Shown here piece by piece: positions 5,966 through 50,389 of a DNA stretch of 64,000 nucleotides (positions within the stretch are counted from its first letter, which is position 1; each line of letters opens with the position of its first letter). The notes under the pieces were generated by a model. The model did no database searches. It was not told the DNA's origin and saw only the letters and a list, made by a program, of their open reading frames with translations. This DNA comes from Myxococcota bacterium (GTDB taxonomy: Bacteria > Myxococcota_A > UBA9160 > SZUA-336). Made by a program: the position numbers and the translations under genes. The stretch spans positions 19,856-83,855 of the forward strand of contig JBIOJK010000003.1 in the NCBI GenBank assembly GCA_044450765.1, read 5' to 3'.

Positions 5966-7068
5966 CTCGCAAGATTCCCATGGTCGATCTGGGCGCGCAG
6001 ACGGAGCGACTCTGGCCCGAGCTCGAGAAGGCAGTTCAGAGCGTCCTGCGCTCGGGTCGCTTCATCCTCGGGCCGAACGTAGAGGCATTCGAACGCGAGG
6101 CCGCGAACTTTCTCGGCACGCGCTACGCGGTCGGTGTGGGCTCGGGCACGGACGCGCTCGTGCTCGCTCTGCGCGCGCTCGGCGTCGGTGCGGGCGACGA
6201 AGTGATCGTGCCCTCGTTCACGTTCTTCGCGACCGCGGAGGCGGTGAGCCTCGTCGGCGCGACGCCGGTCTTCGCGGACATCGAGCCGACCACGTTCTGT
6301 CTCGAGCCCGATTCCGTGGCGAAGGCGATCAGTCTGCGCACGCGCGCGATCGTGCCCGTGCATCTCTTCGGTCACCCCGCCGAGATGGACGCGATCGCCG
6401 CGCTCGCGCGCGCGCGCGGGCTCGCGCTGCTCGAGGACGCCGCACAGGCGTTCGGCGCGGTCTACCGCGGGCGCAAGGTCGGCGGGCTGGGGAACGCGGC
6501 GGCCTTCTCCTTCTTCCCGTCGAAGAATCTCGGCGCGTTCGGCGAGGCCGGGCTGATCGCGACCGACGACGCGGCGGTCGCCGACTCGGTGCGCAGCCTG
6601 CGCGCGCACGGCTCGCGCGAGCGCTACGTGCACACGGAGATCGGCTACAACGCGCGGCTCGACGAGATCCAGGCGGCGCTCTTGCGCGTGAAGCTGCCGC
6701 ACGTGGCGGGCTGGAACGACGAGCGACGGCGCGTGGCTGCCGCCTACGATGCGTCACTTTTTGGTGTCACCGGCGTGCGGATCCCGCGCATCGCGCCCGG
6801 CTGCACGCACGTCTTCCACCAGTACACCGTGCGCGTGCCGGCGGAGAAGCGCGCGGCGATCCAGCGCGCGCTCGAGTCAGCCGGCGTCGCGACTCAGGTC
6901 TACTACCCGATTCCGAACCACGCGCTGCCGATGTACGCGGGGGGCGCGCCGTCGTTGCCCGAGACCGAGACGGCCGCGCGCGAAGTGCTCTCGCTGCCGA
7001 TCTTTCCGGAGCTCACCAACGCGGACGCGGCCGAGATCGCGCGCCTGCTGGCGGCCGCGCTGCGCTAG
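5962..7068 (+). CDS. DegT/DnrJ/EryC1/StrS-family PLP-dependent sugar aminotransferase
   Basis: ArnB/WecE-like motifs (FSFFPSKNLGAFGEAG with the Lys, and HQYTVRV). The GTG start overlaps the GT4 stop (GTGA). Confidence 0.85.
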   Translation: MTRKIPMVDLGAQTERLWPELEKAVQSVLRSGRFILGPNVEAFEREAANFLGTRYAVGVGSGTDALVLALRALGVGAGDEVIVPSFTFFATAEAVSLVGATPVFADIEPTTFCLEPDSVAKAISLRTRAIVPVHLFGHPAEMDAIAALARARGLALLEDAAQAFGAVYRGRKVGGLGNAAAFSFFPSKNLGAFGEAGLIATDDAAVADSVRSLRAHGSRERYVHTEIGYNARLDEIQAALLRVKLPHVAGWNDERRRVAAAYDASLFGVTGVRIPRIAPGCTHVFHQYTVRVPAEKRAAIQRALESAGVATQVYYPIPNHALPMYAGGAPSLPETETAAREVLSLPIFPELTNADAAEIARLLAAALR

Positions 7069-39915: not shown

Positions 39916-40874
39916 TCTCTCTTGCCCCCCCGCTCGTTCCGCGAAAGCTCGACCGCCAATCTTACCGCCTCGATCATCGAGCTTGCGTCCGCCTTGCCCT
40001 GGCCCGCGATGTCGAACGCGGTTCCGTGATCGACGCTGGTGCGCACGAGCGGCAGGCCGAGGGTCACGTTCACGGCCTGCCCGAACGCGTGCGTCTTGAG
40101 AGGCGCGAGACCCTGGTCGTGATACATCGCGAGCACGGCGTCGAACTCGCCCGCCAGCGCGCGGTGGAACAGGCTGTCGCCCGCGAACGGACCGCGGGCG
40201 TCGATTCCGCGCGCGCGCCCGTCCGCCACGGCGGGCGCGATGGCGCGCGCCTCCTCGTCGCCGAAGCGGCCGCCTTCGCCGGCGTGCGGATTCAGCCCGC
40301 AGACGCCGATCCGCGGCGAGCGCAGGCCGAAGCGCGCAGCGAGGTCGCGCTGCATGACTTCCAGCACCTCGAGCAGCCCGGCCCGAGTGATTCGCTCCGG
40401 CACCTCGCGCAGCGCGCAGTGAATCGTCGCGAGCGCAACGCGCAGACCGCGCCCGACGAGCAGCATGACCGCGCGCCCGCTCCCCGCGATCTCTTCCAGC
40501 AGCTCGGTGTGGCCCGGATAGCTGAAGCCGCCGGCGCCGATGATCTCTTTCGACAAGGGCGCGGTCGCCATCGCGTCGAGCTCGCCCGCGAGGCAGTCGC
40601 GCGCGGCTGCCTTCACGGCGTCGACGATCCCGCGCGCCGCGGCCGCCAGCGGCCGGCCGGGCTCGACGCGCGCGCTCGCGAAGGCACGCGCAGTCGCCTG
40701 CGCGAGCGAGCCGCCTGCGCGAGTCACCGCCTCGACGTCGCCGTAGACGCGGAGCTCCACGGCCTCGGCCGCGAAAGCGCGCAGCGCGGCCGCGACCACC
40801 TCGGGCCCGATCCCTGCGGGATCGCCGACGGTGATGCCGATGCGCGGGCGGGGGGTGCGGGGGCGTTCGCTCAA
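39912..40874 (-). CDS. pdxA: 4-hydroxythreonine-4-phosphate dehydrogenase
   Basis: PdxA N-terminal motif ([15 protein letters not shown]). Start reset to a TTG that overlaps the surA-like stop (TTGA). Confidence 0.8.
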
Positions 40875-41836
40875 CGAAGCTCCGGTGCGACCACCTCGAT
40901 ATAGCGGGCCTTTCGCACGTCGGCGATCCACTTCTCGAACGCCGGCATGGTCTGCTGCTCCATCAGCTCGGCGCGCAGCCGGTCGGCGACCTTCTCGTAC
41001 GGCACGTCAGCGGGGTCGAAGCTGTCGAGGTACTGAAACAGATTCTCGCCGTGCGCGGTCTCGATCACCCCGCTGATCTCGCCCGGCTTCAAGCCGGAGA
41101 TCGCGTTCTTGATGTCGGGAGGCGCGTCCTGCTCGCGGAACACGGTCAGCCCGCCTTGCGCCGCGGTCGGCGCCGCGGAGTACTTGCGCGCGAGCGCCGC
41201 GAAGTCGCCGCTCTCGCGCGCCTTCGCCCGGAGCTGCTCCGTCAGCTCCTTCGCCTCGGCGCGCTTCGCCGCCGGCGCGTCCGGCGCCACCGGAATCAGG
41301 ATGTGCAGGACGCGGATTCGCAATCCCGGCTTTGCGTTGCCGTAGCGCTCGTCGTAGAGCTTCCGCACGTCTTCCTCGCTGACGTGCACTTTCCCCTGGA
41401 CCGCGCCCTGGACGATCTTCATGCGTGTGACCTGGCGGCCCAGCTGCTCGCGGTAGGTCTTGCGGTCGAGACCTTGCTTCAGGGCCGCCGCGTAGATGTC
41501 GTCGACCTTGACCCCGGAGTCCTGCGCGATGTTCGCCACGGACTCGTCGATCTCCTCCTCGCTCGCGGTCAGGTTCTGCTTCTTCGCGAGCTGCAGGACG
41601 ATCTTCTCGTCGATCAGCGTCTGCAGCGCGGTGTTCCGCAGCTCGAGCGCCTCTTCCTGACTCAGTGACTCGCCCCGCTCGCGCACGCGGTTGACGTAGC
41701 CGTGCCAGGCTTCGCGCACCTCGGACAGCAGAATCACCTCGTCGCCGACGATCGCCGCGACCCCGTCCACGACCTCGGCGCGCGCCGCCGGCGCCCAGGC
41801 CAAGCCGGCCAGCAGCAGGGCGATCGCTCTCTTCAT
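40871..41836 (-). CDS. surA: SurA-like periplasmic chaperone / parvulin PPIase
   Basis: Signal peptide ([20 protein letters not shown]), a SurA N-terminal chaperone domain and a single PpiC domain. Confidence 0.8.
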
Positions 41837-42704
41837 CGCAGGCTCTCCAGCACGCGGTCGTTCACGCGGATCTCGGCGTTCTTGCGCAGGCCCCGCACCC
41901 ACTCGCGCCGCAGGTCCTCGAGCGTCTGCTCCCCGAGCACGAGGGCGATCTTCTCGCGCACCTCGTCGAAGGTCGCATCGTGCGCCGGCAGTCTGCTCTC
42001 GACGCGAAACAGATGAAAGCCGTAGGGAGACTCGATCACCGGCGACAGGACGCCCACTTCGAGCTCGAACGCGCGGTCGAACGCCTCGGGCATGTCGCCC
42101 TTCGCGAACGGCGGTAGCAAACCGCCGTCCGAGGCCTCGGGACCGATGCTGTTCGCGCGCGCCAGCTCGGCGAAGTCGGCACCGGCCAGGAGCTGCGTGC
42201 GCAGCGCCTCGGCCTTGGGCCGCTCCGCGACGACGATCTGCCGGATCTGAACGCGCGCCGGAGTCGCGTACTCGGCTCGGTGCTCCTCGAAGTAGGCGCG
42301 CTGCGCGCTCTCGGGGGCGCGCGCCCGGGCACCCAGCTCGGCCAGCGCGGTGCGCTCCAGGATCATCTCGCGCCGGACCGACTCGCGATAGCGCGGGTCC
42401 GGATCCTTCCAGCTCTCGCCGTGCAGCTCGCGCAGGCGCGCGTCGACGTCTTCCATCGAGACGTCGACGCCTCGCTTCTTCGCGTAGTTCAACACGACCT
42501 GGTCCGACACGAGCCGCTGCAGGACGTCGGTCGCGACGTCCTCGCGCTTGGCGTCGGGATTGTCTTCCATGCGCTGGTCGACCTGGCGGCGCAGCTCCGC
42601 GGCGGGGACCTGAACGCCGTCGACCTCGGCAGCCCAGGCGTCGCTGTCCGAGCGCGAGCCACAGCCGGCGGCCAGCAATGCGATCAGCAGCGCGACGGCG
42701 CTCT

Positions 42705-42708
<4 letters not shown>
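41833..42708 (-). CDS. PpiC-type peptidyl-prolyl isomerase lipoprotein (PrsA/SurA-like)
   Basis: Lipobox (LLAAGC) and a C-terminal parvulin domain (GFHLFRVE). Its ATG overlaps the mfd stop. Confidence 0.75.
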
Positions 42709-46214
<3,506 letters not shown>

Positions 46215-46354
46215 AAGTCGCTCTCCGGCGATTAAATGCGGAAAGGCCCGCCCCCCGAGATGACCCCGGGGGGTGGACGCGTTGCGATTGGGGGACGGAG
46301 TATAGGGAATGTCGGGTCGCGGGCCGCCCCGAAGGCGAAGCCGCGGGCAGCGGC

Positions 46355-46360
46355 TATAAT
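46355..46360 (+). promoter_or_regulatory. Perfect TATAAT -10 hexamer upstream of rplC
   Basis: GGCTATAATG sits 27 nt upstream of the rplC ATG in otherwise very GC-rich DNA. No good -35 was found. Confidence 0.35.
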
Positions 46361-46387
46361 GCGCCCCCCCTCCGCGAAGGATCCGCC

Positions 46388-47026
46388 ATGAGCCTGGAAT
46401 TGATCGGCCGGAAGCTCGGCATGACCCAGATCTTCACCGACTCCGGCGACCGCGTGCCGGTCACCGTGATCGAGGCCGGCCCCTGCACCGTCGTGCAGAA
46501 GAAGTCGGACGAGACGGACGGTTACTGCGCGCTGCAGCTCGGCTTCGCGGAGAAGAAGGCCAAGCACACGCCCAAAGCCATGCAGGGTCACTTCGCCAAG
46601 GCCAAGACCACCGCGAAGCGCGTGCTGGTCGAGGTTGCGGTCGAGGCGAAGGAGCTCGCGAGCTACGAGGTCGGCCAGCAGGTCACCTGCGAGGGTTACA
46701 AGCCCGGCGAGTTCGTCGACGTCACCGGCACGACCAAGGGCCGCGGCTTCACGGGCGTCGTGAAGCGGCACGGCTTTCCGACGCGCAGTGACACGCACGG
46801 CAACCACGAGTCGTTCCGCCACGGCGGTGCGGTCTCGTCCGGCACGTTCCCGGGTCGCATCAAGAAGGGCCTGCGCATGGCGGGTCACTCGGGAAACGCG
46901 CGAGTGACCCAGCTGAATCTGCGGGTCGAGAAGGTCGAGCCGGAGCGGAACCTGATCTATGTGCGCGGCGCGGTGCCCGGGCGCGCCGACGGCTTCATCT
47001 GCATCCGGCCGACGGTGAAGGGCTAG
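46388..47026 (+). CDS. rplC: 50S ribosomal protein L3, stand-alone gene outside an S10 operon
   Basis: 212-aa bona fide L3 (GMTQIF, GYKPGEFVDVTGTTKGRGFTG, MAGHSGN); GAAGGA RBS. Confidence 0.9.
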   Translation: MSLELIGRKLGMTQIFTDSGDRVPVTVIEAGPCTVVQKKSDETDGYCALQLGFAEKKAKHTPKAMQGHFAKAKTTAKRVLVEVAVEAKELASYEVGQQVTCEGYKPGEFVDVTGTTKGRGFTGVVKRHGFPTRSDTHGNHESFRHGGAVSSGTFPGRIKKGLRMAGHSGNARVTQLNLRVEKVEPERNLIYVRGAVPGRADGFICIRPTVKG

Positions 47027-47628
47027 CGCCGACGGCGCGCTACGACCGCAAGGACGCCTTCTACCGGCGCGCCAAGGACGAGGGCCGCCGCTCGCGCGCG
47101 GCCTTCAAGCTCGAGGACCTGCTGCGCCGCGCGCCGTCGCTGGCCCGGAACGCGGCCGTCCTCGATCTCGGCTGCTGGCCCGGCGGGTGGCTCGAAGTCT
47201 TGGCGCAGCGCATCGGTCCCGAGGGCCGCATCGTCGGCGTCGATCTCCAGCCGACCGACCCCGTGGCCGCCGCGCAGGTCCGGATCCTGACGCTCGACAT
47301 GTGCGCGCCCGAGTCACTCGAGCCGATTCGCGCGGCGCTCGGCCGGCCGGCAGACGCCGTCCTGTGCGACGCGTCGCCCAAGCTCACCGGCGTGCGCGAC
47401 GTGGACCTCGCCGCGATCGACGAGATCTACGCTGCGGCCCTCTCGATCGCGCGCGCGCTGCTCCGTCCGCGCGGCTTCCTGATCGTGAAGGGCTTCCCCG
47501 GGCAAGAGAGCGATCTCTTCCGCAAGGAGCTGAAGCGCCACTTCGCCGACGTGCACGAGATCCGCCCCGAGGGCAAGCGCACCACGTCGAAGGAGTTCTA
47601 CTGGGTCGCTTGCCAGCGCCGCGGATGA
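46999..47628 (+). CDS. rlmE: 23S rRNA Um2552 2'-O-methyltransferase RlmE/FtsJ; start unresolved, possibly a CTG at 46999
   Basis: The conserved N-terminus (AFYRRAKDEGRRSRAAFKLEDL...LDLGCWPGGW) lies upstream of the first canonical in-frame start, a TTG at 47200. A CTG at 46999 would give a 209-aa protein. Confidence 0.6.
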   Translation: MHPADGEGLAPTARYDRKDAFYRRAKDEGRRSRAAFKLEDLLRRAPSLARNAAVLDLGCWPGGWLEVLAQRIGPEGRIVGVDLQPTDPVAAAQVRILTLDMCAPESLEPIRAALGRPADAVLCDASPKLTGVRDVDLAAIDEIYAAALSIARALLRPRGFLIVKGFPGQESDLFRKELKRHFADVHEIRPEGKRTTSKEFYWVACQRRG

Positions 47629-47631
47629 CTC

Positions 47632-48330
47632 CTAGAGCTTGAGCCACGCGAAGCCGCTGCGCAGCGCTTCGCGGCCGCCCTTCTCGAGGATCTCGCCGTG
47701 CGCGACGGTGACTCGCTCGAACTCCCAGGCGAGAATCCGGTCGAGCGACGCGCGCGCGCTTCGCCGGTCCTTCAGAACCGCGAAGCGGAAGATGCGCGAG
47801 GGGCCGAAGCGGCCGAAGGCGCCGTTCACGCGCATGAACAGCCGAGTCGGCGCGCTGGCCGACTCGCGCACGTTGAAGCACAGGTCGAGACACAGCAGCG
47901 TGCGGCTCGCCCGGTGCAGGAACACGACCTCGTTCAAGCTCGGAGCGCCGCGCACGAGCAGCTGATCCAGGTCGGCCGCCCAAAGGTCCGGCGCCCGATC
48001 GGCGAGCACCTCGTCCACGCGCACGTCGCCGAGCTTCTCGCGCAGGCCGGGCGCGCCGAAGACGCGCGCGTGCGGGTACGCGGCGATGTTCTCGCGCAGG
48101 AACATGTGATGCAGCAGATTCGGCGCGATCAGAGCGCGCACGGGCCCGAGTGAGTCGATCGCGCGGCGCACATCGTCGTCCAGCGGCCCCGGGGTGTGCA
48201 CGGCGACACCTCCGCCCGAGAGCCGGACCGCACAGCAGCGCGTCCCGAGCTCGAGGCCGCCCGGCAGGCGCAGCGGGTGGTCGATCGCGATCAGGTCGGG
48301 GTGCAGGCGGTGGACGTGGGTCACTGCCAC
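47632..48330 (-). CDS. DUF4336-like protein (metallo-beta-lactamase-like fold); start uncertain
   Basis: C-terminal roughly 230 aa of the 47632..48486 ORF (IAIDHPLRLPGGLELGTR...APNLLHHMF...). Confidence 0.55.
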   Translation of the reverse strand: MAVTHVHRLHPDLIAIDHPLRLPGGLELGTRCCAVRLSGGGVAVHTPGPLDDDVRRAIDSLGPVRALIAPNLLHHMFLRENIAAYPHARVFGAPGLREKLGDVRVDEVLADRAPDLWAADLDQLLVRGAPSLNEVVFLHRASRTLLCLDLCFNVRESASAPTRLFMRVNGAFGRFGPSRIFRFAVLKDRRSARASLDRILAWEFERVTVAHGEILEKGGREALRSGFAWLKL

Positions 48331-48361
48331 GGCTCTTGAAGCTAAGCGTAGAATCGGCGGC

Positions 48362-50389
48362 GTGGAAGAGCGGCAGATCGAGCTCGGATCGGGCGCGACG
48401 CGCATTCGCATCGAGGGCGACGGCCGGCCGCTCGTCTGGACGCACGGCTTCACGAGCTCGATCGAGGCGGAGGATGCGGCCGGCATGAGCGCGCTCTGGC
48501 GCGGCGTGCTCGACCTGCAGCTCGTGCGCTACGACGCGCGCGGTCACGGCCGCTCCGCGCCGGGCCGCGACGAGCCCGCGCAATCCTGGTCGGCGCTCGG
48601 CGCGGACTTGCTCGAGCTCGTGACTGCGCTCGGCCTCGACCGGCCGATCGCCGGCGGCGCCTCGATGGGCACCGCGACCTCGCTGCATGCGGCCGTGCGG
48701 AACCCGGGCGCGTTCAGCGGCCTGCTGCTGGTCCTGCCGCCGACGGCCTGGGAGACGCGCAAGCCGCAAGCCGATCTGTATCGCGGCGGCGCGGCGCTGG
48801 TCGAGGCGCGCGGCGTCGAGGGATACATCGCCGCTGCGCGCGAGGCCTTCCGCACGCGGCCGATGCCCGGCTTCAGCGAAGAGATGCAGGAGCGCGTGAT
48901 CGCGGAGCTGCGCGCGACGAGCGCCGCGGATCTCGTGCGCAATCTCCGCGGCGCGGCGGCGAGTGACTTGCCCGATCCCGCGCGGCTTCGCGAGCTCGAC
49001 GTCCCGGCGCTCGCGATCGCCACGCGCGGCGATCCCGGTCACCCGCTTTCGACCGCGGAGCGGCTGCTCGAGCTCCTGCCGCGCGCCGAACTGGTCGTGC
49101 TCGACGATCTCACTCAGCTCTCGTCGGCGCGCGGCGAGCTGGAGCGCTTCGCGGCTCGCACCGGCGTGCGCGCCCGCGGGCCGAATGTCTCGCCGATCGA
49201 TCTCTACTCGCCCGACCGCTTCGCGAACGGCGCGCCCTACGCGGACTTCGCGCGCCTGCGCCGCGAGCGCCCGGTGCACTGGCAGCCGACGCCGGACGGC
49301 GGCGGATACTGGGCCGTGACGAAGCACGCCGACGTCGCGGCGATCTCGCGCGACCCGGCGACTTACTCGTCTGCGCAGGGCTTCGTCGTGATCGAGCCGC
49401 TCTCGGAGGCGCAGCTGGCGATGATGCGCTTCACCTTACTCGGCATGGACCCGCCCGAGCACGCTCGGCTGCGCCGGCTGTTCCAGAGCGCCTTCACGCC
49501 GCGCATGGTCGCGGCGCTCGAGCCGCGCATTCGCGAGATCTCGCGCGGCATCATGGCGCGCGGAGCAGCGCGCGGCGAAGTCGAGTTCGTCGAGGACATG
49601 GCGGGTGACTTGCCGATGCAAGTGATCGGCGAGCTGCTCGGCGTGCCCGAGGGCGAGCGTGCGCGCCTGCGCGCTTGGGCGGCGCAGCTGACCGGCTCGC
49701 AGGATTCCGATCTCAATCCGGGCGGCGCGGAGGCCGCGCCCGCGGCGTCGATCGAGATGGCCATGTACGCGATCGGGCTCGCGCGGGCGCGCCGCGGCGC
49801 GCCCGGATCCGACCTCACGACCGTCGCCGTGAACGCTGAAGTGGACGGCCACGCGATGACCGACGCGGAGTTCGGCGGCTTCTTCGTCCAGCTCGCGACC
49901 GCCGGCAACGACACGACGCGCAACTTGTTGTCCTCGGGGACGCGCCTCCTGCTCGAGCATCCGGACGCGCTCGCGTCACTGCGCGCGGACGAGTCACTCG
50001 TTCCGAGCGCGGTCGAGGAGATGCTGCGCGTCGAGAGCCCGCTCCACTACTTCCGGCGGACCGCGACGCGGGACGCGAGCCTGCGCGGCCAGGCGATCCG
50101 CAGCGGCGACCGCGTCGTCCTGTACTACGGCGCGGCAAACCGCGACGAAGAGGTCTTTCGCGAGCCCGACCGCTTCGACGTGCGGCGCTCGCCGAACCCG
50201 CATCTGTCGTTCGGCTTCGGCGAGCACTTCTGTCTGGGAGCCGCGCTCGCGCGCCTGGAGGCGCGCGTGTTCTTCGAGGAGCTGCTGCGCGCGTTCCCGC
50301 GCATCGAGCTGGCCGGCGAGCCGCGGCACCAGCGCTCGAATCTGAACAACGCGCTGAAGTCGCTGCCCGTCCGGCTCTACGCGAACTAG
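48362..50389 (+). CDS. Apparent fusion of an alpha/beta-hydrolase (N-terminal, about 270 aa) and a cytochrome P450 (C-terminal, about 400 aa)
   Basis: Continuous frame. The hydrolase has an HG box (WTHGF), a nucleophile elbow (GASMG) and Asp/His (RGDPGHP). The P450 has EMLR and FGFGEHFCLGAALA. Confidence 0.65.
   Translation: MEERQIELGSGATRIRIEGDGRPLVWTHGFTSSIEAEDAAGMSALWRGVLDLQLVRYDARGHGRSAPGRDEPAQSWSALGADLLELVTALGLDRPIAGGASMGTATSLHAAVRNPGAFSGLLLVLPPTAWETRKPQADLYRGGAALVEARGVEGYIAAAREAFRTRPMPGFSEEMQERVIAELRATSAADLVRNLRGAAASDLPDPARLRELDVPALAIATRGDPGHPLSTAERLLELLPRAELVVLDDLTQLSSARGELERFAARTGVRARGPNVSPIDLYSPDRFANGAPYADFARLRRERPVHWQPTPDGGGYWAVTKHADVAAISRDPATYSSAQGFVVIEPLSEAQLAMMRFTLLGMDPPEHARLRRLFQSAFTPRMVAALEPRIREISRGIMARGAARGEVEFVEDMAGDLPMQVIGELLGVPEGERARLRAWAAQLTGSQDSDLNPGGAEAAPAASIEMAMYAIGLARARRGAPGSDLTTVAVNAEVDGHAMTDAEFGGFFVQLATAGNDTTRNLLSSGTRLLLEHPDALASLRADESLVPSAVEEMLRVESPLHYFRRTATRDASLRGQAIRSGDRVVLYYGAANRDEEVFREPDRFDVRRSPNPHLSFGFGEHFCLGAALARLEARVFFEELLRAFPRIELAGEPRHQRSNLNNALKSLPVRLYAN

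What the first reader, a model, noticed from the sequence alone, without database searches (positions are those of the whole stretch)
46214..47026. Stand-alone rplC with its own TATAAT promoter and a G/C hairpin in the mfd/rplC divergent spacer
L3 is normally the second gene of the S10 operon (rpsJ-rplC-rplD...). Here it is monocistronic-looking, preceded by mfd on the opposite strand and followed by rlmE. A perfect TATAAT at 46355-46360 and a 7-bp CCCCCCG/CGGGGGG hairpin at about 46247-46272 lie upstream. This may be a second, separately regulated L3 paralogue, or a lineage-specific break-up of the S10 operon.
Basis: partly seen in the sequence, partly recalled or inferred. Interest (0 to 1): 0.5.

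Follow-up and report, generated by a model that had tools for sequence, protein, structure and literature searches.

The report
Relocated rplC forming rplC–rlmE operon
In this uncultured Myxococcota lineage the gene for ribosomal protein L3 has left the otherwise near-universal S10 ribosomal operon and sits with its own promoter in front of an rRNA methyltransferase gene that has no normal start codon, so it is most likely a relocated single copy rather than a spare L3.

Summary
A full-length bacterial uL3 gene lies at 46388-47026 (+). It is divergent from mfd (42705-46214, -) and is followed after 5 nt by an FtsJ/RlmE-like gene. The TATAAT at 46355-46360 is the only one in the 64 kb window, and the G/C hairpin exists.

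The mfd<->rplC->rlmE arrangement is kept in every relative examined, down to 56% L3 identity. Metagenome and MAG loci labelled Myxococcota carry tuf-rpsJ-rplD-rplW-rplB with S10 abutting L4 and no rplC. That favours a lineage-specific break-up of the S10 operon over an extra paralogue. I could not show both loci in one assembly, so this link is inferred.

The -10 element and its GC-rich discriminator travel with rplC. The hairpin and a TATACT -10 on the minus strand are found only where mfd is the neighbour, so they belong to mfd.

An unexpected extra: rlmE has no ATG/GTG/TTG start. A conserved ACG sits exactly where a relative with an unlinked rlmE has ATG, 3-14 nt after the rplC stop. This suggests termination-reinitiation coupling at a near-cognate codon.

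In the same S10-L4 group, rplX (L24) is also missing from the spc cluster.

The parts
42705..46214 (-). mfd (transcription-repair coupling factor). TTG start at 46214, with GGAGAG Shine-Dalgarno at 46221-46226.
   Evidence: TIGR00580 scores 1008 bits against a cut-off of 800. Pfam domains found: UvrB_inter, CarD_TRCF_RID, DEAD, Helicase_C, TRCF. Sequence read.
46246..46280 (.). Conserved G/C-rich hairpin or palindrome, core stem 46248-46257 / 46267-46276. It lies in the predicted mfd 5' leader. The functional strand is not resolved.
   Evidence: Folds at -24 to -35 kcal/mol on both strands in the window, L001, L004 and L008. It sits at the same place in 7 of 7 loci where mfd is the neighbour. 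Only 1 covarying pair was found. It is absent in L238 and L006, where the upstream neighbour is not mfd. No Rfam family matches.
46299..46304 (-). -10-like hexamer TATACT on the minus strand (AGTATA on +), the candidate mfd promoter.
   Evidence: AGTATAGG is invariant in the 7 mfd-adjacent loci. It is the only TATACT in the window. Only the minus orientation has A at position 2 and T at position 6. It is absent where mfd is not adjacent. No transcription start site data exist.
46355..46369 (+). rplC promoter: -10 TATAAT (46355-46360) followed by the GC-rich discriminator GCGCCCCCC.
   Evidence: GCTA(T/C)(A/T/G)ATGCGC is conserved in all clade members. A TATACT, TACAAT or TATATT -10 is kept in L238, L006 and L008. 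Relatives have TTGGGC-N17 as the -35. In the window and L005 an insertion displaces it. The two-hexamer consensus scan finds nothing in the window.
46376..46381 (+). Shine-Dalgarno GAAGGA, 6 nt before the rplC ATG.
   Evidence: Read directly. CGAAGGA is conserved in the window, L001 and L215, L005 has GAGGAA, and L234, L236 and L004 have TGGAG.
46388..47026 (+). rplC, bacterial ribosomal protein uL3, 212 aa.
   Evidence: TIGR03625 scores 253 bits against a cut-off of 143, covering the profile from end to end. It aligns over its full length with uL3 chains from solved ribosomes. It is 100% identical to NCBI MFI5314305.1, 'MAG: 50S ribosomal protein L3 [Myxococcota bacterium]'.
47018..47022 (+). 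AAGGG, the Lys-Gly codons at the end of rplC, 9 nt before the ACG. A possible Shine-Dalgarno for rlmE.
   Evidence: Conserved as AAGGG in all clade members with at least 73% L3 identity. Its role is inferred.
47032..47628 (+). rlmE-like FtsJ-family 2'-O-methyltransferase, 198 codons. Its proposed initiation codon is ACG at 47032-47034.
   Evidence: Pfam FtsJ scores 136 bits. There is no ATG, GTG or TTG in frame before TTG 47200. The ACG is conserved in 9 of 10 lineage members and aligns with the ATG of L007. The first 55 codons have dN/dS of 0.06-0.2. They carry the catalytic Lys (AFKL) and motif I, DLGCWPGGW.

Best explanation
This is the ordinary uL3 gene of an uncultured Myxococcota lineage, and very probably the only one. 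In this lineage rplC has been moved out of the S10 operon.

rplC is now the first gene of a two-gene unit, rplC-rlmE, divergent from mfd. It is transcribed from its own sigma-70-type promoter: a -10 TATAAT with a GC-rich discriminator, a leader of about 20 nt, and a GAAGGA Shine-Dalgarno. It therefore lies outside any control exerted on the S10 leader.

The downstream FtsJ/RlmE-like methyltransferase has no canonical start codon. It is most likely translated by ribosomes that finish rplC and restart 5 nt further on at a conserved near-cognate ACG. That would hold the enzyme at a small, fixed fraction of uL3 output.

The G/C hairpin and the TATACT on the minus strand belong to the mfd promoter and leader, not to rplC.

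Shown: gene identities, conservation of the arrangement, conserved -10 elements, absence of a canonical rlmE start, and the existence of rplC-less S10 operons in Myxococcota-labelled genomes.

Inferred: that those S10 operons and this rplC lie in the same genomes, the promoter activity, initiation at ACG, and the role of the hairpin.
For: Identity: TIGR03625 scores 253 bits here. Canonical S10-operon L3s score 258-291 bits and other stand-alone L3s 245-279. The protein aligns over its full length with uL3 from solved ribosomes.

Arrangement: uvrA-pdxA-surA-surA-mfd <-> rplC-rlmE is found in L001-L005, L234 and L236 (73-86% L3 identity) and in L008 (57%). L215 (86%) shows rplC-rlmE, but its contig ends 82 nt upstream of rplC. 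rplC-rlmE with a different upstream neighbour is found in L238 and L006 (64% and 56%). rplC-rlmE is also found in L014, L023, L028, L042 and L044.

One L4 group (group 3, GC about 0.68) is labelled Myxococcota, Myxococcales or Deltaproteobacteria by NCBI. MAGs GCA_035489755.1 and GCA_035315025.1 carry tuf-rpsJ-rplD-rplW-rplB, and longer contigs with the same S10 (L205, L206) show rpoC-rpsL-rpsG-fusA upstream of it. S10 and L4 overlap by 4 nt in these loci.

Co-occurrence: JGI sample Ga0210377 holds both a group-3 S10-L4 contig (L119) and a clade rplC contig (L235). The Ga03350xx sample series holds both kinds as well.

Promoter: the -10 and discriminator are conserved even where the upstream gene differs.

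rlmE start. In L004 an in-frame stop leaves only CGC-ACG-GCC before the conserved RYERKD. L007, where rlmE is 4 kb away from rplC, has ATG at the same position. Initiation at ACG with an N-terminal Met has been measured in E. coli (bioRxiv 10.1101/063800).
Against: No single assembly was shown to hold both the stand-alone rplC and an rplC-less S10 operon. Protein accessions and assembly ids on the two sides did not coincide.

The L3 of this clade is slightly less conserved than Mfd in every pair compared: 86 vs 89%, 82 vs 84%, 73 vs 77%, 57 vs 65%. Its dN/dS is 0.18-0.37. Its TIGR03625 score is at the low end of the range. Some relaxation, as expected for a paralogue, therefore cannot be dismissed.

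The window has no recognisable -35.

Initiation at ACG is weak in E. coli, at most about 1-3% of AUG, and has not been observed here. L005 has GCG in place of ACG, with a CTG overlapping the rplC stop.
Confidence: 0.78

Rival explanations
1. An extra uL3 paralogue. The genome keeps a canonical rpsJ-rplC-rplD operon, and this copy is a second, separately regulated L3, for example for specialised ribosomes or a non-ribosomal role together with RlmE.
For: The gene lies outside the operon and has its own promoter. It evolves as fast as Mfd or slightly faster, and its family score is at the low end. The same genome could not be checked for a second copy.
Against: No S10-type L3 turned up in the contexts examined. 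All 11 distinct loci of the clade and its near relatives are stand-alone. Myxococcota-labelled S10 operons lack rplC, and those genomes need an L3 somewhere. This abundant, co-occurring family is the obvious candidate. The protein is full length and aligns with ribosome-bound uL3 throughout.
Confidence: 0.1
2. Xenologous displacement. The lineage acquired a foreign rplC (perhaps already linked to rlmE) by horizontal transfer, and afterwards deleted the native copy from the S10 operon. This differs from moving its own gene.
For: In a rough neighbour-joining tree the window's clade does not group with the canonical Polyangiaceae L3 (L029). Stand-alone L3s fall into two or three separate groups. 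rplC-rlmE linkage occurs in several lineages.
Against: The tree is a distance tree of one short protein with long branches and no support values. GC content and codon use of rplC match the rest of the window, with CAI rank 2 of 36. Either way the result today is the same: one L3, outside the operon.
Confidence: 0.1
3. The hairpin is a regulatory element of rplC, for example an autogenous uL3 binding site or an attenuator.
For: It lies in the shared spacer, is conserved in sequence, and folds stably as + strand RNA. G-U pairs favour the + strand in L001 and L008.
Against: It lies upstream of the conserved rplC -10, so it would not be in the rplC transcript. It is missing in L238 and L006, which keep rplC and its -10 but have another upstream gene. 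In the window the - strand folds better. There is almost no covariation.
Confidence: 0.07

Closest known systems
Canonical S10 operon (rpsJ-rplC-rplD-rplW-rplB-rpsS-rplV-rpsC-rplP-rpmC-rpsQ), autoregulated by L4 at the S10 leader in E. coli (own knowledge)
   Same: The protein is the orthologous uL3. The rest of the cluster is intact and in the usual order in the related loci.
   Different: rplC is not in the operon: S10 overlaps L4 by 4 nt. rplC has its own promoter and a leader of about 20 nt, so it cannot be controlled through an S10 leader. No Rfam r-protein leader matches here.
Known breaks in the S10-spc-alpha cluster, such as rpsJ placed with tuf in the str operon in cyanobacteria and plastids (own knowledge)
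   Same: A lineage-specific rearrangement of an otherwise very conserved gene order.
   Different: Here an internal gene is excised while its two neighbours are joined. In the same group rplX is likewise excised from between rplN and rplE. I found no description of this in the paper library.
Duplicated ribosomal protein genes, such as the zinc-dependent and zinc-independent L31, L33, L36, S14 and S18 pairs (own knowledge)
   Same: An r-protein gene sits outside the main clusters with separate regulation.
   Different: Those systems are defined by two copies in one genome. No second uL3 was seen here, and the related S10 operons have none.
E. coli rlmE (ftsJ/rrmJ), first gene of the heat-shock rlmE-ftsH operon (own knowledge); structure 1EIZ
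   Same: FtsJ fold. The K-D-K-E residues and the SAM motif are present in the alignment. Pfam FtsJ scores 136 bits.
   Different: It lies downstream of rplC, not upstream of ftsH. It scores below the NCBIfam RlmE equivalog cut-offs, 149 vs 300 and 105 vs 269. It has no canonical start codon.
Non-AUG initiation used for dosage control (infC AUU in E. coli), and translational coupling by termination-reinitiation in bacterial operons (own knowledge; 64-codon measurements in bioRxiv 10.1101/063800)
   Same: A near-cognate codon at the start position, a few nucleotides after the stop of the upstream gene, preceded by a purine-rich stretch.
   Different: The codon is ACG. As far as I know, no natural bacterial gene has been established to start at ACG. 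Here it is conserved across 56-100% L3 identity and recurs in a separate lineage, L044.
rRNA and r-protein promoters with a GC-rich discriminator, such as E. coli rrnB P1 CTATAATGCGCC (recalled from memory; a lead, not a test)
   Same: GCTATAATGCGCC: a -10 followed directly by GCGCC.
   Different: No -35 is present in the window. Stringent or growth-rate control was not tested, and the factors involved in Myxococcota may differ.

Membership tests
Bacterial ribosomal protein uL3 (TIGR03625 / PF00297) | Score above the curated cut-off over the whole profile. | tested here: met
   253.2 bits against a cut-off of 142.9, profile positions 2-202 of 202. PF00297 scores 56 bits against a cut-off of 22.
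Bacterial ribosomal protein uL3 (TIGR03625 / PF00297) | Full-length similarity to uL3 chains seen in solved ribosomes. | tested here: met
   Residues 5-207 align with 7jil chain C residues 4-204 (E 2e-57). A further 55 distinct uL3 sequences also match.
Bacterial ribosomal protein uL3 (TIGR03625 / PF00297) | Physical presence in the 50S subunit. | not testable with these tools
   Needs ribosome proteomics from a cultured or enriched member.
S10 operon member | rplC flanked by rpsJ and rplD. | tested here: not met
   There is no S10 or L4 anywhere in the 64 kb window, nor within 6-10 kb of rplC in any clade locus. The neighbours are mfd and rlmE.
Ribosomal protein paralogue pair | Two genes of the same family in one genome. 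| tested here: inconclusive
   No whole genome was accessible. Related S10 operons contain no rplC.
RlmE (23S rRNA U2552 2'-O-methyltransferase) | Score at or above the NCBIfam equivalog cut-off. | tested here: not met
   TIGR00438 scores 148.9 against 300.15. NF008390 scores 104.8 against 269. The gene is therefore filed as FtsJ-family, RlmE-like.
FtsJ-like methyltransferase (PF01728) | Pfam gathering score, plus the SAM motif and catalytic K-D-K-E. | tested here: met
   135.6 bits against 24.1. AFKL, DLGCWPGGW, CDASP, VKGF and KEF align with FTSJ1. The assignment of K-D-K-E positions rests on my knowledge of the 1EIZ literature.
Translationally coupled gene pair (termination-reinitiation) | The downstream start lies within a few nucleotides of the upstream stop. 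| tested here: met
   The gap between the stop and the ACG is 3-5 nt in 8 lineage members and 14 nt in L008.
Translationally coupled gene pair (termination-reinitiation) | Downstream translation depends on upstream translation. | not testable with these tools
   Needs reporter fusions with a premature stop in rplC.
Sigma-70-type promoter | -35 and -10 hexamers with 16-18 nt spacing. | tested here: inconclusive
   The -10 is perfect and conserved. TTGGGC-N17 is present in L001, L215, L234, L236 and L004. The window itself has no -35, and the consensus scan finds nothing.
Known structured RNA (Rfam) | A match to any Rfam 15 covariance model. | tested here: not met
   Only two chance-level miRNA matches, E 2.2 and 5.7, far below the gathering scores.

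The most novel reading that the evidence does not exclude
RlmE in this lineage would be made only by ribosomes that have just completed uL3 and restart at a conserved ACG codon. This would be a natural, evolutionarily maintained ACG-initiated bacterial gene. Its output would be tied stoichiometrically to a ribosomal protein that sits next to the methyltransferase's target region.

The same lineage has removed both rplC and rplX from the conserved cluster. These encode the two proteins described as initiators of 50S assembly in E. coli reconstitution (own knowledge). The move could allow them to be regulated apart from the other r-proteins.
Probability: 0.35. Interest if true: 0.7.

Novelty: new variant of a known kind. 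Interest (0 to 1): 0.5.

Why it matters
The S10-spc-alpha cluster is one of the most conserved gene orders in prokaryotes, and its regulation is built on that order.

A lineage in which rplC (and, in the matching S10-L4 group, rplX) has been cut out and given its own promoter shows that the order is not obligatory. It offers a natural test of how r-protein stoichiometry is kept without operon linkage.

The practical points:
- uL3 is a single-copy phylogenetic marker that is usually expected next to rpsJ and rplD.
- Gene callers truncate the downstream methyltransferase in these genomes, because its start codon is ACG.

If initiation at ACG is confirmed, it would be a rare natural example of near-cognate reinitiation used to set an enzyme-to-r-protein ratio.

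Tried and rejected
1. Exact look-up of the window's L3 found no contig on record.

3. I tried to place the stand-alone rplC and an rplC-less S10 operon in one assembly. I compared NCBI protein accessions, assembly and sample ids and contig lengths used as fingerprints. There was no match. Only same-sample co-occurrence was found (Ga0210377 and the Ga03350xx series).

4. Tetranucleotide signatures did not separate the S10-L4 groups: correlation with the window was 0.83 for group 3 against 0.75-0.83 for the others.

5. Codon adaptation (CAI) ranks rplC 2nd of 36 window genes, but the spread is small.

6. The neighbour-joining tree of L3 is too poorly resolved to decide between paralogy, transfer and relocation.

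7. A readthrough or frameshift fusion of L3 and RlmE was rejected. The rlmE frame relative to rplC is 0, +1 or +2 in different relatives.

8. A start at the first canonical codon (TTG 47200) was rejected. It would remove the catalytic Lys and the SAM motif, and the upstream 55 codons are under purifying selection.

9. The hairpin as an intrinsic terminator was rejected. There is no T-run, and the scan finds none.

10. The hairpin as a dispersed repeat was rejected. The motif occurs once in the window.

11. Literature searches for a described rplC relocation or for bacterial ACG starts found nothing relevant.

Full report
**Observation.** The window has 70% G+C. The region 46214-47026 runs from the TTG start of mfd on the minus strand (42705-46214) to the stop codon of a 212-codon ORF on the plus strand (46388-47026).

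- The plus-strand ORF scores 253 bits on TIGR03625 (bacterial L3, cut-off 143) across the whole profile.
- mfd scores 1008 bits on TIGR00580.
- The next plus-strand gene is an FtsJ-family methyltransferase (Pfam 136 bits).
- TATAAT lies at 46355-46360. It is the only TATAAT on either strand of the 64 kb window.
- The CCCCCCG/CGGGGGG arms are at 46251-46257 and 46267-46273. They extend to a 10-bp stem that folds at -24 kcal/mol on the + strand and -27 on the - strand.

**What the gene is.**

- The protein is 100% identical to NCBI MFI5314305.1, 'MAG: 50S ribosomal protein L3 [Myxococcota bacterium]', on a 90 kb contig.
- It aligns over its full length with uL3 chains from solved bacterial ribosomes.
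- Its family score of 253 bits lies at the low end of the range: 258-291 bits for five L3s that sit in canonical S10 operons, and 245-279 for five other stand-alone L3s.
- Nothing suggests a truncated or decaying copy.
- The clade's L3 is slightly less conserved than the neighbouring Mfd in every pair I compared, and dN/dS is 0.18-0.37. I list these as evidence against a fully ordinary status.

**The arrangement is a lineage trait.**

- The order uvrA-pdxA-surA-surA-mfd <-> rplC-rlmE is kept on contigs carrying L3 proteins 73-86% identical to the window's. These include a 212 kb MAG contig of GCA_035499075.1 and a 701 kb long-read contig. A 7.7 kb contig of GCA_035624655.1 (L215, 86%) shows rplC-rlmE but ends 82 nt upstream of rplC.
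- mfd <-> rplC-rlmE is also kept at 57% identity in L008.
- rplC-rlmE with a different upstream neighbour occurs at 64% (L238) and 56% (L006).
- More distant Myxococcota, Polyangia and 'Deltaproteobacteria' MAGs also have rplC followed by rlmE (L014, L023, L028, L042, L044).
- Syntrophorhabdus MAGs have rplC alone, beside a HemN-like gene.
- A Polyangiaceae MAG (L029) and 59 other loci from other phyla have the canonical S10-L3-L4-L23-L2 order.

**Paralogue or relocation?** I could not read a whole genome, so I asked whether S10 operons without rplC exist.

- The search pattern joined a high-GC back-translation of the S10 'HKR' motif to the L4 'QKGTGRAR' motif. The distance was set to what is expected if L3 is absent.
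In 119 of the 120 loci, S10 is directly followed by L4-L23-L2.
- These loci fall into at least 16 L4 groups.
- Group 3 has 25 loci with GC about 0.68. Its internal L4 and S10 divergence corresponds to about 70-82% L3 identity by my calibration on canonical loci.
- NCBI labels group 3 as Myxococcota, Myxococcales or Deltaproteobacteria.
- For one S10 protein of this group, contigs from the MAGs GCA_035489755.1 and GCA_035315025.1, a 290 kb long-read contig and several JGI samples show tuf-rpsJ-rplD-rplW-rplB-rpsS-rplV-rpsC-rplP-rpmC-rpsQ-rplN-rplE-rpsN-rpsH-rplF. The longer contigs (L205, L206) also show rpoC-rpsL-rpsG-fusA upstream. S10 and L4 overlap by 4 nt. A second S10 protein gave the same picture.
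- These genomes must encode uL3 elsewhere. The stand-alone family studied here carries the same NCBI label, has similar G+C and abundance, and occurs in the same samples. Ga0210377 holds both L119 and L235, and the Ga03350xx series holds L085 and L118 as well as the P0025 organism.

I therefore regard relocation of a single copy as the best explanation. It remains an inference.

**Anatomy of the spacer.** Seven loci in which mfd is the neighbour share three blocks.

1. The G/C hairpin. It folds at -24 to -35 kcal/mol on either strand. It is conserved mainly as sequence (CCCGGGGGGTGG), with only one covarying pair.
2. An invariant AGTATAGG about 25 nt to its right. On the minus strand this reads TATACT, and only that orientation has the critical A at position 2 and T at position 6.
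3. TTGGGC-N17-TA(T/C)(A/T/G)AT followed by GCGC(C/G).

In the window and in L005, an insertion between blocks 2 and 3 has displaced the -35. That is why the consensus scan finds no two-hexamer promoter.

L238 and L006 have a different gene upstream. They lack blocks 1 and 2 but keep the -10 and discriminator in front of rplC. L006 has a different G/C hairpin and a TATCAT-like -10 in front of its own mfd.

I conclude that block 3 is the rplC promoter, and that blocks 1 and 2 are the mfd promoter and leader. The hairpin would then lie at about +20 to +50 of the mfd mRNA. Its function (stability, attenuation or a protein site) and its active strand are not resolved. No Rfam family matches.

The -10 and discriminator GCTATAATGCGCC resemble E. 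coli rrnB P1 as I recall it. That is a lead towards growth-rate or stringent control, not a result.

**The downstream gene.** The FtsJ-family reading frame is open from well inside rplC, but it has no ATG, GTG or TTG before TTG 47200.

- A protein starting at that TTG would lack the catalytic Lys (AFKL) and SAM motif I (DLGCWPGGW).
- The 55 codons upstream of it have dN/dS of 0.06-0.2, lower than the rest of the gene. They are therefore translated.
- Gene callers truncate the gene in relatives to 149-170 aa, and one annotation uses an ATT at -31.
- In the rlmE frame, the codon in front of the conserved ARYDRKD is ACG in 9 of 10 lineage members (56-100% L3 identity). It lies 3-14 nt after the rplC stop.
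- The frame relative to rplC is 0, +1 or +2 in different members. That excludes a readthrough or frameshift fusion.
- In L004 the in-frame stop upstream is the rplC TAG itself, which leaves only CGC-ACG-GCC as possible starts.
- L005 has GCG instead, but has a CTG overlapping the stop (C-TGA).
- L044, from a separate lineage, has ACG aligned with the ATG of L023 and L028.
- L007 provides the control. There rlmE lies 4 kb from rplC and starts with ATG at exactly this position (MPRYERKD).
- ACG-initiated GFP with an N-terminal Met has been recovered from E. coli. Non-canonical codons give 0.01-3% of AUG (bioRxiv 10.1101/063800).

The most economical reading is termination-reinitiation. Ribosomes ending rplC restart at the ACG, helped by the conserved AAGGG 9 nt upstream. 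The result would be a low, fixed ratio of enzyme to uL3. This is inferred, not shown.

**Comparison with what is known.**

- The protein is a member of uL3 (tests met).
- The gene is not a member of the S10 operon (test not met).
- The paralogue-pair test is inconclusive but disfavoured.
- The methyltransferase meets Pfam FtsJ but not the NCBIfam RlmE equivalog cut-offs, so I call it RlmE-like.
- Breaks in the r-protein clusters are known in other lineages. I found no description of rplC excision or of a conserved bacterial ACG start in the paper library.
- In passing, rplX (L24) is missing between rplN and rplE in 13 of 13 group-3 loci. It is present in 40 of 40 canonical loci and in 11 of 11 loci of the other S10-L4 groups. 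It is not in the window.

**Verdict.** The 'break-up of the S10 operon' reading is supported, and the 'second paralogue' reading is not. The hairpin is reassigned to mfd. The finding is a new variant of a known kind of gene-order change. It is of moderate interest, raised by the conserved ACG start of the coupled methyltransferase gene and the parallel loss of rplX from the cluster.

Noticed in passing
L205 10307-11218; also L085, L089, L135, L158, L163, L198, L206-L211: In the Myxococcota-labelled S10-L4 group, rplX (L24) is also missing from the spc cluster. The rplN stop is followed directly by the rplE start. This holds in 13 of 13 loci. L24 is present in 40 of 40 canonical loci and in 11 of 11 loci of the other S10-L4 groups. 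No L24 is found in the window. L3 and L24 are the two 50S assembly-initiator proteins of E. coli reconstitution (own knowledge).
   Followed up: partly
L085-L204 (metagenome contigs): S10 directly abutting L4, with no rplC, occurs in at least 16 distinct L4 groups. Two large groups (33 and 30 loci, GC 0.64-0.66) have unknown taxonomy and keep L24. rplC excision is therefore probably much wider than this clade.
   Followed up: partly
L011, L012, L036, L037, L046, L049, L070 around position 6000: Syntrophorhabdus MAGs have a stand-alone rplC downstream of a HemN/HemW-like radical-SAM gene and a SelA-like gene. No rlmE, S10 or L4 lies nearby. Neighbour identities were judged by eye from the translations, not by a family search.
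   Followed up: no
L005 5825-5975; window about 46309-46349: L005 carries an insertion of about 150 bp between the mfd -10 and the rplC -10. It consists of repeated GGGCGAAGCGAG(A/G)GCCGCCCCGAGCGTAG(GAAATCG) units. The window has a shorter related insertion (GGGCCGCCCCGAAGGCGAAGCC). Both displace the TTGGGC -35 seen in the other relatives.
   Followed up: no
window 47632-48486 (-) and 48194-50389 (+): Downstream of rlmE lies a convergent DUF4336 gene that starts 3 nt after the rlmE stop. Next comes a long ORF that, in the syntenic relative L001, carries alpha/beta-hydrolase and cytochrome P450 domains in one 678-aa product.
   Followed up: no
window 40871-46214 (-): mfd is followed on the same strand by two tandem SurA-like peptidyl-prolyl isomerase genes. 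In the syntenic relatives these are followed by pdxA and uvrA, apparently as one long transcription unit with 4-nt overlaps.
   Followed up: no
L215 688-1320: In GCA_035624655.1 the rlmE-like gene is called from an ATT codon 31 nt before the rplC stop. That is a different non-canonical start from the conserved ACG proposed here.
   Followed up: partly
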